Assembly: GCA_965217775.1 (NCBI GenBank)
Contig: CBDCJH010000002.1
Coordinates: 1,984,001-2,048,000, forward strand
Direction of reading: 5' to 3'
Source of the DNA: Acidobacteriota bacterium
GTDB taxonomy: Bacteria; Acidobacteriota; UBA6911; RPQK01; JAJDTT01
Length of the DNA stretch: 64,000 bases
Every line of letters starts with the position of its first letter. Positions within the stretch are counted from its first letter, which is position 1. The position numbers and the translations under genes are program-made. Shown here one piece after another: positions 36,326 to 39,137 of the stretch. The notes under the pieces are model-generated. The model saw nothing but the letters and a program-made list of their open reading frames with translations, had not been told where the DNA came from and searched no databases.

Positions 36326-36988
36326 ATGCCGCCGCCTCTGGACCTTCTTCCCAGCCTCCTGACGGGACTTTTGGTGACGCTCCAGATCACCGCGGGCGCC
36401 GCGGTGGTGGCGCTGGTTTCCTCCTTCCTGGCGGGACTGGGCCGGCTCTCCGGGCGCAGAACGGTCCGGGGGATCTGGCGCCTTTACGTCGACGTCTTCC
36501 GGGGAACCTCGGCCCTGGTCCAGCTCTTCTGGGCCTACTTCGCTCTTCCCCTGCTGGGACTCCGGCTGGAGGCGGTGACGGTGGGAATCCTGGTCTTGGG
36601 CCTGAACCTGGGATCGTACGGATCGGAGATCGTCCGGTCGGCGATCCGAAGCGTCTCCCAGTCCCAGTACGATGCCGCCGCGGCTTTAAACCTGAGCCGC
36701 CGCCAGACGCTCTGGAGAATCATCCTGCCGCAGGCCGCGTTGCACATGATTCCCCCCTTCGGGAACCTTTTCATCGAACTCCTCAAGGGAACGGCCCTCG
36801 TCTCCCTCATCAGCCTGGCAGACCTCACGTTCCGGGGGCAGACGCTACGGGCGGCCACCTTGCGTTCCGGCGAAATCTTCGCCCTGATTCTGGTCCTCTA
36901 CTTCCTGTTGGCCCAGGTGATTGCGAGAGGAATGAGATTTCTCGAGTCCAGGTTGGCGGCGGGACGCGATTCCGGGGGTGCGGCGTGA
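36326..36988 (+). CDS. ehuC: ectoine ABC transporter permease
   Basis: YVDVFRGTSALVQLFWAYFALP, GSYGSEIVR, PPFGNLFIELLKGTALVSLI. Confidence 0.88.
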   Translation: MPPPLDLLPSLLTGLLVTLQITAGAAVVALVSSFLAGLGRLSGRRTVRGIWRLYVDVFRGTSALVQLFWAYFALPLLGLRLEAVTVGILVLGLNLGSYGSEIVRSAIRSVSQSQYDAAAALNLSRRQTLWRIILPQAALHMIPPFGNLFIELLKGTALVSLISLADLTFRGQTLRAATLRSGEIFALILVLYFLLAQVIARGMRFLESRLAAGRDSGGAA

Positions 36989-37644
36989 TCTTCGACTGGG
37001 GATTCGCCCTGGAGATCCTGCCCGCGCTGCTGCGAGCCGGTCTGGTGACGCTCCAGTGCACCGTAGTGGGCATGATCCTGGCGCTGGTGCTGGGCTTGGG
37101 CTGGGCCCTCCTGCGCCGGTCTTCCCGCCGCATCCTGGCCTGGCCGGCCAATTGGATCGTGGAGTTCGTCCGCAGCACTCCGCTCCTGGTGCAGGTCTAC
37201 TTCCTCTTTTACGTCCTGCCCGAATTCGGAATCTCCTGGTCGCCCTTCGTCACCGGCGCCCTGGGTCTGGGGCTGCATTACAGCGCCTATACCGCCGAGG
37301 TCTACCGGGCCGGCATCGACAACGTCCCGTCCGGCCAATGGGAAGCCGCCCGGGCCCTGAATCTGGGCTGGATGGAGACCTGGAGGTCAGTCATTCTGCC
37401 CCAAGCGGTACCTCCCATGGTCCCGGCCTTGGGAAATTACCTGGTAGGCATGTTCAAGGAGACCCCCATCCTGGCCGCTATCACGGTCCAGGAACTGCTC
37501 CAGACCGCCAAGCTCATCGGCGCCGAGAGCTTCCGGTACCTGGAACCCTTGACCCTGGTGGGCCTCCTCTTTCTGCTGATCAGCCTTTCCTCGGCGCAAC
37601 TGATCGGGTGGCTGGAATCCCGGACGGCCCAGCGGCCTGTGTGA
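36985..37644 (+). CDS. ehuD: ectoine ABC transporter permease
   Basis: FDWGFALEILP, EFVRSTPLLVQ, GLHYSAYTAEVYRAGI, GNYLVGMFKETP, FRYLEP. Confidence 0.88.
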   Translation: MIFDWGFALEILPALLRAGLVTLQCTVVGMILALVLGLGWALLRRSSRRILAWPANWIVEFVRSTPLLVQVYFLFYVLPEFGISWSPFVTGALGLGLHYSAYTAEVYRAGIDNVPSGQWEAARALNLGWMETWRSVILPQAVPPMVPALGNYLVGMFKETPILAAITVQELLQTAKLIGAESFRYLEPLTLVGLLFLLISLSSAQLIGWLESRTAQRPV

Positions 37645-37651
37645 ATCAAAT

Positions 37652-38894
37652 GGGGCTTATATACTAAGTGACCTTGGCATACAGTTCTGGCACCACGCTT
37701 TCCCCAACGAGATACGTTCCGGTGCCCAGGGCAAGAACCCCAGCCCTGAGAATGTTCAGGGCGGCATTGTGGTCCCTGTCCATTCCAAGTCCGCAGGCCC
37801 TGCACCGGAAGGTTTCGCTCCGTCCTGGATCGTGGCGGGCGCCGCACCGGTGGCAGTCCTGCGATGTATATGCGGGATTCACTTCTACGAACTCCCGACC
37901 GGCCCATTCTGCCTTGTACTGGAGTTGATTCCGCAGAAGCCCCCATGATTGCGTCATTATTTCTCGATTCAGCCCCTTCTTCTTCGAGCCCTTCGTTACC
38001 ATCCCTTGGATGTTCAGCTTCTCCACAGCGATCAGACCGTGCTCACGAATGATCCTGGTGGAGAGACGATGGCAGGCATTACGGTTTCGGACCGATTCCC
38101 GGTGACGGAGCCGAGATAGCTGTACGATCCGCTTCCGTCTGGTCTTGGAAATCTTCTTGCACCTGGAGACCTTTCTCTGCTGCTTTCGGATCTCCCCCCA
38201 GTCCCGTCTATTCCGTTCGATCCTCTCACCCGTGGACAGCACCGCTCGCTTGCGGACTCCCAGGTCGATCCCCACCGAAGACTCGCATTTCGGTAGCGGC
38301 GGCTTCTCCACCTCGTAGGTCAGGTCCACATACACCCGGTTCGGCTTGCGGACAATCCGCAACGCTTTCAACGGGCATCCGTCCGGCAACGGCCGGGACG
38401 GAAAGATCCGGATCGTCGGGAAGCCCTTGGGCCGGATGGCGTAGCCCCGAGCGCGCTTCTTCACCCGGGTCGCCTTCGGGTCGACGACGTCGATGGTCTC
38501 CATCCTCGCAATGGGCCGGAATCGAGGATACCCCGGCTTCTCCCCCGCCTTGCAGCGACGGAAGAACGCCTTGAAGGCCCGGTCCAACCGCATCAACATC
38601 CCACGCTCCGCCTTGACCGCCACCGACCCGAGCCCCTCCGGATCGTCCTTCCTCTGGGAGGTCAACCCCTTCATCTGATCGTACAGGGTCACGCCGCGTT
38701 GCTCGGATTCCCAGGCCGTCCTGCGTTCCTCCAGTGCAGCGTTGTACAGCCGATTCAGGATGGACCTCACCCCGTCCAACCGCCGGATTCCACCCTTGGA
38801 CAGCTTGGCTCTGCACTGGATAGTTGCGTGGACTTTCATGGCAGGAATTGTAACCCATCAGCCTGAATTCTCGGCACTTACGTATATAATCCCC
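37652..38894 (-). mobile_element. non-autonomous TIR element (IS1595/ISNwi-like ends) carrying only tnpB
   Basis: TIRs GGGGCTTATATAC-TAAGTG / GGGGATTATATACGTAAGTG; perfect 8-bp duplication AATCAAAT at 37644-37651 and 38895-38902. Confidence 0.8.
37664..38839 (-). CDS. tnpB: RNA-guided endonuclease TnpB
   Basis: LYNAALEERR, AFKAFFRR..GEKPGYPRF, RuvC-I GIDLG, RuvC-II AVEKL, YTSQDCHRCG/CRACG Zn finger, RuvC-III DRDHNAALNI. Confidence 0.95.
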   Translation of the reverse strand: MKVHATIQCRAKLSKGGIRRLDGVRSILNRLYNAALEERRTAWESEQRGVTLYDQMKGLTSQRKDDPEGLGSVAVKAERGMLMRLDRAFKAFFRRCKAGEKPGYPRFRPIARMETIDVVDPKATRVKKRARGYAIRPKGFPTIRIFPSRPLPDGCPLKALRIVRKPNRVYVDLTYEVEKPPLPKCESSVGIDLGVRKRAVLSTGERIERNRRDWGEIRKQQRKVSRCKKISKTRRKRIVQLSRLRHRESVRNRNACHRLSTRIIREHGLIAVEKLNIQGMVTKGSKKKGLNREIMTQSWGLLRNQLQYKAEWAGREFVEVNPAYTSQDCHRCGARHDPGRSETFRCRACGLGMDRDHNAALNILRAGVLALGTGTYLVGESVVPELYAKVT

Positions 38895-39137
38895 AATCAA
38901 ATCCCATTCCCGCCCCTGCGGTCCCGCCACAGTCTCGATCAGGTCCTCCTGCGCGGCCAGGAAGGTCAACCCGGAGACGACGTAGCTCGGAGGTTGACAC
39001 TTGTCCCCCAATCGGGCGAGCTAATCGGCAACGCGCCGGTTCAACTTCGGAGCCGGCCTTGTCCGACCGGGCTGCTCGGACCGCAGTTCCGAGTGCCGTC
39101 CAAGCCAGCCTGCTATCCAGCCCGAAGGGAGCCCGCC

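What the first reader, a model, noticed from the sequence alone, without database searches (positions are those of the whole stretch)
37644..38902. Intact TnpB packaged between IS1595-like inverted repeats with an 8-bp target duplication
Seen: the 1243-bp unit 37652-38894 has TIRs GGGGCTTATATAC-TAAGTG and (reverse complement) GGGGATTATATACGTAAGTG. It is flanked by a perfect AATCAAAT direct repeat and encodes only TnpB. All three RuvC acidic residues and the four Zn-finger cysteines are present. The stop codon lies inside the TIR, and a TACAAT box sits 7 nt before the ATG (possible leaderless mRNA). Established: IS200/IS605 elements (TnpA-Y1) have subterminal hairpins, no TIRs and no target duplication. 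8-bp duplications and ends like ggnnatTAT are, as I recall, traits of the ISNwi group of IS1595 DDE elements, which carry passenger genes. Inference: TnpB has been captured by a DDE transposon and travels as a non-autonomous cassette mobilised in trans, a bacterial parallel to Fanzor capture by unrelated transposons.
Basis: partly seen in the sequence, partly recalled or inferred. Interest (0 to 1): 0.88.

Follow-up and report, generated by a model that had tools for sequence, protein, structure and literature searches.

The report
TnpB cassette riding an IS1595 transposon
This is a small mobile DNA cassette that carries only an RNA-guided nuclease gene (tnpB) and borrows the ends of an unrelated cut-and-paste transposon, so another element's enzyme can move it; this kind of capture has been described in bacteria before, but this example may show how the nuclease and the transposon fit together.

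Summary
Window 37652-38894 is one of 12 full-length copies of a 1.24-kb element in this genome. Ten of the 12 are flanked by perfect 8-bp duplications, all different. A same-genus genome has the empty site with a single copy of the 8-mer.

The same ~25-nt terminal inverted repeat also bounds five 1.76-kb elements in the genome. These encode an IS1595-family DDE transposase and also make 8-bp duplications.

The cargo looks functional:
- 10 of 12 tnpB reading frames are intact.
- The RuvC acidic residues and zinc-finger cysteines are present.
- dN/dS between subfamilies is 0.12-0.24.
- The 3' end of the gene holds an omegaRNA-like structure: all 260 cells paired, and 9 of 20 pairs have compensatory changes.

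The general phenomenon is already published. Altae-Tran et al. 2023 describe TnpB in DDE elements with inverted repeats, and solo TnpB moved in trans. IS1595 is not named in the text I could read.

One thing is new here. In 22 of 22 insertions with a duplication, the duplication is preceded by G and starts with A then A/T, on the tnpB-upstream side only. The transposase-carrying partner does not follow this rule. I read this as a TAM-like signature.

The parts
37644..37651 (.). Target-site duplication, copy next to the tnpB 3' end (AATCAAAT; ATTTGATT in tnpB sense). Its first base is the last base of the stop codon of the upstream 219-aa ORF 36985-37644.
   Evidence: The empty site in G006 has a single copy, AATCGAAT.
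37652..37670 (.). Terminal inverted repeat at the tnpB 3' end (the right end in tnpB sense). It carries a private 1-bp deletion compared with the other 11 copies.
   Evidence: RNA-library contigs show a C put in behind 37663.
37664..38839 (-). tnpB, 391 aa, with the RuvC motifs and zinc finger intact. The stop codon lies inside the inverted repeat.
   Evidence: dN/dS between subfamilies is 0.12-0.24.
37652..37786 (-). OmegaRNA-like structured region overlapping the 3' end of tnpB. Three tested helices lie at 37689-37748. The conserved AGAACTGT lies at 37681-37688. A candidate pseudoknot joins the loop of helix 1 to the last 6 nt of the element.
   Evidence: Alignment A1. Pair counts: all 260 cells paired, 9 of 20 pairs with changes on both sides, slid controls 33-40% paired. 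The helices are kept in the 53%-identity clade.
38847..38852 (-). TACAAT hexamer, 7 nt before the tnpB ATG. Its function is not shown.
   Evidence: The scan found no matching -35 hexamer.
38875..38894 (.). Terminal inverted repeat at the tnpB 5' end (the left end in tnpB sense), GGGGATTATATACGTAAGTG. It matches the ends of the IS1595 transposase element at 19 of 20 nt, and 25 of 27 if extended.
38895..38902 (.). Target-site duplication, copy next to the tnpB 5' end. In tnpB sense it is preceded by G (window 38903 is C on the plus strand) and begins with AT, as in all 22 insertions that have a duplication.

Best explanation
The unit is a non-autonomous member of the IS1595 transposon family: a mobile insertion cassette. 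It has IS1595-type terminal inverted repeats and makes 8-bp target duplications, but it has no transposase of its own. Its only cargo is tnpB together with an omegaRNA-like structured RNA encoded in the 3' end of the gene.

It is moved in trans by the DDE transposase of a 1.76-kb IS1595 element that is in the same genome and has almost the same ends.

Shown from sequence:
- insertion with an 8-bp duplication, confirmed by an empty site
- many independent insertions
- ends shared with a transposase-carrying partner
- an intact tnpB under purifying selection
- a covarying RNA structure

Inferred:
- The partner's transposase does the moving.
- TnpB is still an RNA-guided nuclease whose guide is read from the flank beyond the tnpB-3' end.
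- TnpB helps the cassette persist by cutting the empty allele.

The cassette and its ends have diversified together into at least five subfamilies within one genus (dS above 1). The partnership is therefore old and maintained, not a recent accident.
For: Copies and duplications:
- 12 full-length copies at 93-100% identity in the genome.
- 10 of 12 have perfect 8-bp direct repeats, all different; 1 has one mismatch; 1 has none.
- Across six genomes of the genus there are 25 distinct insertions: 19 perfect, 3 with one mismatch, 3 with none.
- Empty site in G006.

The partner:
- A search for the 20-nt repeat (up to 4 substitutions) gave 37 matches. 23 are ends of the 12 cassettes. 14 are ends of 7 elements that encode an IS1595 transposase.
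- The transposase scores PF12762 at 132.4 bits (cut-off 27) and NF033547 at 177 bits (cut-off 75).
- The partner's own insertions have perfect 8-bp duplications in 16 of 16 A-type elements for which both ends were found, in G000, G002 and G006.
- No IS200/IS605 transposase lies next to any copy. The genome has only 3 weak PF01797 matches, in frames of 225-316 aa, all outside the cassettes.
- The main cassette family (93% nt identity or more) was seen in G000 and G006 only. Both hold the A-type transposase element.

The cargo:
- 10 of 12 copies keep the 391-aa ORF.
- The catalytic and zinc-binding residues are conserved in 6 of 6 aligned proteins, except C345S in one.
- dN/dS is 0.12-0.24 in the five comparisons between subfamilies; two further pairs within the main family gave 0.33 and 0.38.
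- RNA structure with compensatory changes.
- Contigs from RNA libraries of two studies hold the element and bridge its tnpB-3' end into three other flanks.
Against: - No experiment shows transposition, and none shows that the A-type transposase acts on these ends.
- The cassette's two ends differ from the partner's at 1 and 3 of 20 positions.
- For the other subfamilies I found no transposase element with exactly matching ends in the same genome. G005 holds 4 cassettes with both ends (plus at least one more tnpB match), but only a broken IS1595 gene at 57% identity.
- 3 of 25 insertions lack a duplication.
- The RNA-library data are assembled contigs. They cannot show transcript ends, and they cannot exclude carried-over DNA.
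- Rfam has no matching family.
- Nuclease activity, the guide boundary and any TAM are untested.
Confidence: 0.8

Rival explanations
1. It is a canonical tnpB-only IS200/IS605 (IS1341-type) element. It would be moved by a Y1 TnpA, inserted 3' of a TTGAT-like motif, and its flanking repeat would be a coincidence.
For: The window copy happens to have TTGAT inside its flank ATTTGATT. The protein's best solved relative is ISDra2 TnpB.
Against: 19 of 25 insertions have perfect 8-bp duplications (18 different 8-mers; one occurs at two unrelated loci), and an empty site has one copy. The ends are 20-36-nt inverted repeats shared with a DDE transposase element. No Y1 transposase is adjacent. The scores fall below NCBIfam's IS200_TnpB and IS607_TnpB cut-offs: 168.9 against 425, and 130.3 against 350.
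Confidence: 0.01
2. The cassette moves as described, but tnpB is a passive or decaying passenger with no role in the element's life.
For: 2 of 12 copies are broken. Passenger remnants do occur in this family: the partner element carries a decayed restriction-endonuclease-fold ORF.
Against: dN/dS is 0.12-0.24 over divergences with dS above 1, all within inverted-repeat-bounded elements. The catalytic residues are kept. The RNA helices are kept by compensatory changes inside the coding region. The insertion sites carry an orientation-specific flank motif.
Confidence: 0.08
3. The G|A(A/T) rule at the tnpB-upstream flank comes from the target preference of whichever transposase moves the cassettes, or from some other bias. 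It has nothing to do with a TnpB TAM.
For: Both element types choose AT-rich 8-mers. 8 of 16 partner insertions fit G|A on one side or the other. The motif was defined after looking at the data. The true transposase of four subfamilies is unknown.
Against: DDE elements with near-identical ends should not sense orientation. Yet the G005 subfamily, whose ends match over about 25 nt, obeys the rule in 4 of 4 insertions. Of these, 3 fit on the upstream side only and none on the downstream side only. Overall 17 insertions fit on the upstream side only and 0 on the other side only (binomial 1.5e-5). The partner fits in 5 of 16 in transposase sense (Fisher 3.6e-6).
Confidence: 0.35
4. TnpB here has a different job. 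For example, it could have a fixed guide made from the element's own terminal repeat and aimed at the ends of related IS1595 elements, or it could act as a regulator.
For: The last tested helix ends 37 nt before the element's end. The terminal 30 nt could in principle be a guide. That stretch resembles the partner's ends.
Against: The loop of helix 1 can pair with the last 6-7 nt of the element. One lineage shows matching changes on both sides: GGGAAUU with AAUUCCC. This places the scaffold's end at the element's end. Intact catalytic residues argue against a pure regulator.
Confidence: 0.07

Closest known systems
DDE-transposase-associated TnpB branches (DDE-1 to DDE-6) of Altae-Tran et al. 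2023, PNAS (PMC10691335; section 9 read in full and passages of sections 5, 8 and 10 seen)
   Same: TnpB sits inside elements with inverted terminal repeats. The tnpB 3' end lies within 250 bp of the transposon end. Solo TnpB is flanked by ends nearly identical to those of transposase-carrying elements, which the authors read as mobilisation in trans.
   Different: The text names only IS630. A 2026 review (PMC13565253, passages) lists ISL2, IS630 and IS1031. 'IS1595' occurs 0 times in the paper's main text. Its supplements, which I could not open, may list it. Here tnpB and the transposase were never in one element: 0 of 25 cassettes and 0 of 16 partners. The oriented flank motif is not described in what I read.
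IS1595 family, ISNwi1 group (ISfinder/TnPedia; recalled, not checked by a call)
   Same: The partner has the IS1595 DDE domain and an N-terminal zinc ribbon. The ends begin GGGGATTAT, which fits the recalled consensus ggnnatTAT. Duplications are 8 bp. Passenger DNA is present.
   Different: The cassette itself has no transposase, and its passenger is tnpB plus a guide-RNA scaffold. A full-text search for TnpB with IS1595 gave 9 papers; by title and abstract start, none is about this arrangement. In a search for either TnpB or ISNwi1 (766 papers), none of the 10 listed held ISNwi1.
Mobile insertion cassettes (MICs, e.g. MICBce1; recalled)
   Same: Passenger gene(s) lie between IS-type inverted repeats with no transposase, and move in trans.
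   Different: The cargo is itself a transposon-derived RNA-guided nuclease, and it is under purifying selection.
tnpB-only IS200/IS605 elements (IS1341 group)
   Same: A single tnpB gene, with an omegaRNA-like structure overlapping its 3' end and reaching the element's end.
   Different: IS200/IS605 elements have no inverted repeats and make no duplication (review PMC13565253, passages). This element has both.
Fanzor in eukaryotic DDE transposons
   Same: A TnpB homologue is carried by transposons that make duplications. According to the review, the 5' duplication is read as part of the TAM and the 3' duplication lies in the omegaRNA scaffold (PMC13565253, passage).
   Different: The host is bacterial. 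The duplication is 8 bp and variable, with only its first two bases and the base before it fixed. Most of the duplication would therefore have to be guide, not TAM.

Membership tests
TnpB (RNA-guided endonuclease, NCBIfam NF040570 / Pfam PF01385 + PF07282) | Profile match above the curated cut-off | tested here: met
   NF040570 scores 218.7 bits against 100. PF07282 scores 91.4 against 26.3 and PF01385 scores 66.6 against 30.5.
TnpB (RNA-guided endonuclease, NCBIfam NF040570 / Pfam PF01385 + PF07282) | RuvC D-E-D catalytic residues and a CxxC...CxxC zinc finger | tested here: met
   D191, E272 and D353/D355 align with the motifs of 8bf8. They are invariant in 6 of 6 aligned proteins. C328, C331 and C348 are invariant, and C345 is present in 5 of 6.
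TnpB (RNA-guided endonuclease, NCBIfam NF040570 / Pfam PF01385 + PF07282) | An omegaRNA encoded at the 3' end of tnpB and running to the element's end | tested here: inconclusive
   The covarying helices are strongly supported. The pseudoknot to the terminal nucleotides has modest support. Rfam has no match. The transcript ends are not known.
TnpB (RNA-guided endonuclease, NCBIfam NF040570 / Pfam PF01385 + PF07282) | RNA-guided, TAM-dependent DNA cleavage | not testable with these tools
   This needs a cleavage or TAM-depletion assay.
IS1595 family (as a non-autonomous derivative) | Terminal inverted repeats shared with an element that encodes a DDE_Tnp_IS1595 transposase | tested here: met
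   The ends match at 19 of 20 and 17 of 20 nt with the 1762-bp elements. The transposase is identified by PF12762 and NF033547.
IS1595 family (as a non-autonomous derivative) | 8-bp target-site duplication of variable sequence | tested here: met
   19 of 25 are perfect, plus 3 with one mismatch. There is an empty site. The partner is perfect in 16 of 16.
IS1595 family (as a non-autonomous derivative) | Its own IS1595 transposase gene | tested here: not met
   tnpB is the only long sense ORF. The element is therefore a cassette, not an autonomous IS.
IS1595 family (as a non-autonomous derivative) | Actual mobilisation by the IS1595 transposase | not testable with these tools
   This needs a transposition assay.
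IS200/IS605 family | No terminal inverted repeats and no target duplication; subterminal hairpins; a Y1 TnpA in cis or in trans | tested here: not met
   Inverted repeats and variable duplications are present. The genome has only 3 weak PF01797 matches, none in or next to a copy.
IS200/IS605 family | Insertion 3' of a fixed 4-5-nt motif that serves as the TAM | tested here: inconclusive
   There is no fixed pentamer. However, an oriented K-G|A-W pattern straddles the start of the duplication in 22 of 22 insertions.
IS607 family | A serine-recombinase TnpA; no inverted repeats and no duplication | tested here: not met
   The element has inverted repeats and duplications. IS607_TnpB scores 130.3 bits, below the 350 cut-off. 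I did not search the genome for serine recombinases.

The most novel reading that the evidence does not exclude
TnpB has been fitted onto a duplication-making DDE transposon by a TAM that straddles the edge of the duplication. The motif is K-G before the 8-mer and A-W as its first two bases, which resembles the TGAT of the TTGAT TAM reported for ISDra2. The omegaRNA scaffold runs through the terminal repeat to the last CCCC, so the guide is the duplicated 8-mer plus the host DNA beyond it.

Only the naive, empty allele then reads TAM plus full guide match. In the occupied site, the upstream copy loses the match after 6-8 nt and the downstream copy lacks the TAM.

TnpB would thus cut only empty alleles and drive copying of the cassette into them. 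Only insertions that landed next to a TAM in the right orientation would persist. That would explain the 22-of-22 rule, and why the cassette outnumbers its autonomous partner.
Probability: 0.4. Interest if true: 0.8.

Novelty: new member of a known kind. Interest (0 to 1): 0.6.

Why it matters
Reviews explain the rarity of TnpB in bacterial DDE transposons in two ways. Cut-and-paste excision already leaves a break, and TnpB's fixed TAM sits badly with the variable sites that DDE enzymes choose (PMC13565253, passages).

This locus is a clean natural system for testing that explanation:
- one genus
- at least five co-diversified cassette subfamilies
- 25 mapped insertions
- an identified partner transposase
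- an empty site
- a flank motif that behaves like a TAM

If the TAM reading holds, it shows how RNA-guided homing can be layered onto a transposon that makes duplications. That would be the bacterial counterpart of what has been proposed for Fanzor.

It would also supply a compact 391-aa TnpB with a possibly very short TAM, which is of practical interest for genome editing. If the reading fails, the locus is still a well-documented example of a published class.

Tried and rejected
Rejected: the IS200/IS605 reading, for the reasons given under rivals.

Led nowhere:
- Rfam search of 37500-39050, both strands, at E up to 5: 0 matches.
- Sigma-70 and terminator scan: one promoter-like site on the plus strand inside the gene, none upstream of tnpB on the minus strand, and 0 terminators. 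The leaderless-mRNA idea stays untested.
- Exact search of metagenome contigs for the 30-nt tnpB-5' end (two degenerate positions): 0 matches.
- Search for exactly matching transposase partners of the other subfamilies. An end pattern run on G004-G008 gave 19 matches. Most lie at or beside tnpB matches. A pair 257 bp apart in G004 may be a miniature derivative, and 2 are singletons. A seed-based inverted-repeat search of 11 IS1595 loci found no match to cassette ends.
- Empty sites in the other seven genomes of the genus. Their similarity to the window's left flank stops 23 nt before the insertion point, so only 1 of 8 relatives was informative.
- L151, a cassette at 53% protein identity, has the IS1595-type ends but no duplication, so it could not be used for the flank rule.
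- RNA libraries were available only as assembled contigs. They cannot show starts, ends, strand or level. Contig depth was higher over the tnpB-3' 300 nt in the four runs, but I do not use this as evidence. Stretches without cover mean nothing.
- The representative-protein search gave 23,719 relatives at E up to 0.001 and 826 at E up to 1e-30. The best full-length hit was 52% identical. There is no genomic context, so I could not ask how many are repeat-bounded.

Not available or not used:
- The look-up of encoding contigs is declared closed and I did not call it.
- Supplementary files of Altae-Tran 2023 could not be seen. They may already list an IS1595 association.
- I did not run structure prediction, complex prediction or the protein atlas, because the protein family is not in doubt.
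Full report
**What is there.** AATCAAAT lies at 37644-37651 and again at 38895-38902, on either side of a 1243-bp unit (37652-38894). The unit's ends are inverted repeats: GGGGCTTATATAC-TAAGTG, and in reverse complement GGGGATTATATACGTAAGTG. The only long ORF is on the minus strand, 37664-38839, 391 aa.

This ORF is a TnpB:
- Pfam OrfB_IS605 and Cas12f1-like_TNB
- NCBIfam guided_TnpB at 218.7 bits against a cut-off of 100
- below the cut-offs of the IS200- and IS607-specific TnpB models

Its best solved relatives are an AI-designed nuclease and ISDra2 TnpB (8bf8, E 1.5e-32). In that alignment the GIDLG, AVEKL and DRDHNAALNI motifs line up. D191, E272, D353, D355, C328, C331 and C348 are invariant in six aligned family members. 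C345 is present in five. The stop codon lies inside the repeat, and TACAAT lies 7 nt before the ATG. A sigma-70 scan found no two-hexamer site there.

**It is a repeated, mobile unit with real target duplications.** The genome holding the window (G000, 6.43 Mb, two contigs) has 12 full-length copies at 93-100% identity, plus diverged and partial ones. With all copies read in tnpB sense:
- 10 of 12 are flanked by perfect 8-bp direct repeats, each with a different sequence
- one has a single mismatch
- one has none

The 1-bp gap in the window copy's repeat is private to that copy.

I searched the same genus with the window's left flank. One genome (G006) matched right up to the insertion point. 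There it reads ...CCTGTGTG-AATCGAAT-CCCACTCC..., a single 8-mer with no element. In the other seven genomes similarity stops 23 nt earlier, so they say nothing.

**The ends belong to an IS1595 transposon present in the same genome.** A search for the 20-nt repeat, allowing up to 4 substitutions, gave 37 matches. Twenty-three are the ends of the 12 cassettes. Fourteen are the ends of seven other elements.

Five of those seven are 1760-1762 bp long. Their ends are GGGGATTATATACGAAAGTG (19 of 20 nt shared with the cassette's tnpB-5' end, and 25 of 27 if extended). All five have perfect 8-bp duplications, and they carry a 334-aa ORF that is intact in four. The ORF is an IS1595 transposase:
- PF12762 at 132.4 bits (cut-off 27)
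- NF033547 at 177 bits (cut-off 75)
- the zinc ribbon PF12760 at 24.5 bits, just under its cut-off of 25.4

Two further elements have diverged ends and transposases 59-66% identical.

All 16 tblastn matches to TnpB in the genome belong to this one family. The genome has only three weak Y1-transposase matches, in frames of 225-316 aa, none in or beside a cassette. That the ISNwi1 group of IS1595 has ends ggnnatTAT, 8-bp duplications and passenger genes is my recollection of ISfinder. No call checked it.

**The association is old and maintained.** With the TnpB protein as query, 6 of 41 related genomes matched at E up to 1e-20. All six are in the window's genus (5 of its 8 other genomes), and none of the 32 genomes of other genera matched. 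In an even sample of the phylum, 3 of 401 genomes (1 of 227 genera) matched at E up to 1e-70, with only four candidates scored per genome.

Within the genus there are at least five subfamilies, at 73-98% protein identity. Each is bounded by repeats that start GGGG(A/C)TTATA or GGGAATTATA, and the inner part of the repeat differs by subfamily on both ends together. I collected 25 distinct insertions from six genomes: 19 with perfect 8-bp duplications, 3 with one mismatch and 3 with none.

Between subfamilies dN/dS is 0.12-0.24, with dS from 0.39 to about 1.4 (above 1 in four of the five comparisons). TnpB has therefore been under purifying selection while living inside these repeats.

Further out:
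- A metagenome contig with a TnpB 53% identical (L151) has 36-nt repeats with the same signature, GGGGCTTATATACAAGAGTGCCGAG...
- Two partial contigs of that clade end ...GTAAGCCCC.
- A 45%-identical TnpB, seen twice at one locus, has different 17-nt repeats with a 7-bp direct repeat.
- Relatives at 34-35% showed no inverted repeats with my finder. One has an HTH_17 ORF directly upstream, as IS607 elements do.

**An omegaRNA-like structure.** I aligned the last 175 nt of 13 cassettes from all subfamilies. The alignment supports three helices, at window 37689-37748 on the minus strand:
- 20 pairs, with all 260 cells forming standard pairs
- 9 pairs with changes on both sides
- 0 of 500 shuffles reaching the observed values on four of five measures, and 4 of 500 on the fifth (number of further pair types)
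- 33-40% pairing when the partners are slid by 1-3 columns

The helices lie inside the coding region, and the 53% clade keeps them with further compensatory changes. After the last helix comes the conserved AGAACTGT and then the terminal repeat.

The loop of helix 1 (GGGGUU) can pair with the last six nucleotides of the element (AGCCCC). In one lineage both sides have changed together (GGGAAUU with AAUUCCC), at the cost of two amino-acid changes. That is one event, so the support is modest. It suggests that the scaffold ends exactly at the element's end and that the guide is read from the host flank. Rfam has no matching family.

Contigs from four RNA libraries of two studies hold the element. 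They bridge its tnpB-3' end into three flanks other than the window's. Being contigs, they show neither transcript ends nor true expression.

**A flank rule that looks like a TAM.** I read all 22 insertions that have a duplication in tnpB sense.
- The base before the upstream copy of the duplication is G in 22 of 22.
- The first base of the duplication is A in 22 of 22.
- The second base is A or T in 22 of 22.
- The base two before is G in 14, and T, A and C in 3, 3 and 2.
- The mirror-image pattern on the other side occurs in 5 of 22.
- 17 insertions fit on the upstream side only, and none on the downstream side only (binomial 1.5e-5).

The 16 insertions of the transposase-carrying partner, with perfect duplications in G000, G002 and G006, fit G|A in 5 of 16 in transposase sense and in 8 of 16 in either orientation. 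Fisher tests against the cassettes give 3.6e-6 and 2.6e-4.

The rule holds in the G005 subfamily, whose two ends are nearly identical over about 25 nt. A transposase could hardly tell orientation there. The three flanks from RNA-library contigs and the three tnpB-3' flanks of the 53% clade also begin AA or AT.

I defined the motif after seeing the data. The insertions are independent events, but the elements are related, so the P values are only a guide.

K-G-A-W resembles the last four bases of TTGAT, the target and TAM reported for ISDra2 (review PMC13565253, passages). The same review says that in Fanzors the 5' duplication is read as part of the TAM and the 3' duplication lies in the scaffold.

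**How it most likely works.**

Shown: the cassette inserts with 8-bp duplications at many AT-rich sites. It shares its ends with an IS1595 transposase element. It carries an intact, selected tnpB and a covarying RNA.

Inferred:
- The IS1595 DDE transposase binds the shared ends and moves the cassette in trans.
- tnpB and the RNA are transcribed from the cassette.
- The RNA's guide is the duplicated 8-mer plus the downstream host DNA.
- TnpB cuts only the empty allele, where the K-G(A-W) motif precedes a full match. This favours copying of the cassette back into empty alleles and its retention.

In the occupied site neither copy of the 8-mer is a target. The upstream copy is followed by the repeat, and the downstream copy is preceded by CCCC. 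I give the transposition part 0.8 and the TAM and homing part 0.4.

**Comparison with what is known.** Altae-Tran et al. 2023 (PMC10691335; section 9 read, passages of sections 5, 8 and 10) describe six DDE-associated TnpB branches. All have inverted terminal repeats. They also describe solo TnpB with ends nearly identical to those of transposase-carrying systems, which they read as trans mobilisation. Only IS630 is named there. A 2026 review lists ISL2, IS630 and IS1031.

'IS1595' does not occur in the paper's main text. A full-text search for TnpB with IS1595 found 9 papers; by title and abstract start, none is about this arrangement. In a search for either TnpB or ISNwi1, none of the 10 papers listed held ISNwi1.

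The kind is therefore known. This is a new, well-resolved member, possibly with a transposon family not linked to TnpB before. The oriented flank rule is something I did not find described.

**Verdict.**
- Observation: confirmed.
- Interpretation: supported.
- Novelty: new member of a known kind.
- Interest: 0.6. This rests mainly on the TAM-like rule and on how testable the system is.

Noticed in passing
G000:C2:836929-838690 (locus L107 101-1862) and four sister copies: The 1762-bp IS1595 element has about 700 bp beyond its transposase gene. This stretch contains a 110-aa ORF with a weak restriction-endonuclease-fold match (NA-iREase1 3e-6, Mrr_cat 0.0017). It is probably a decayed passenger gene.
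   Followed up: partly
G000:C2:4647530-4647687 (inside cassette copy T11, outside the window): One cassette copy is interrupted by a ~160-bp miniature inverted-repeat element. A blastn of this element gave 105 match rows across the genome, the listed ones at 95-100% identity.
   Followed up: partly
G004:C1:4815243-4815499: Two inverted matches to the end pattern (both GGGGATTATAAAGA, as in the G005 cassettes) lie 257 bp apart. This may be a miniature derivative without tnpB.
   Followed up: no
L071 and L163 (the same locus seen twice), TnpB at 45% identity: A 1382-bp tnpB element with different 17-nt inverted repeats (GAGACGATTTCACAAAT) and a 7-bp direct repeat (TGTGTAT). A phage-integrase-family ORF starts just outside its end.
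   Followed up: partly
G000:C2:1186780-1188023 (copy T4), L028 and L037: Three cassettes have unrelated flanks instead of a duplication. This could result from recombination between copies, but I found no reciprocal partner among the listed copies.
   Followed up: no
G005 (same genus): This genome holds 4 cassettes with both ends and a duplication (at most one mismatch), plus at least one more tnpB match. The only IS1595 match to the A-type transposase query is a partial gene at 57% identity with a stop codon. These cassettes may be stranded, or served by a transposase I did not detect.
   Followed up: partly
window 36985-37644: The cassette inserted exactly at the stop codon of the upstream 219-aa ORF. 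The last base of its TGA is the first base of the duplication, so the ORF is left intact.
   Followed up: no
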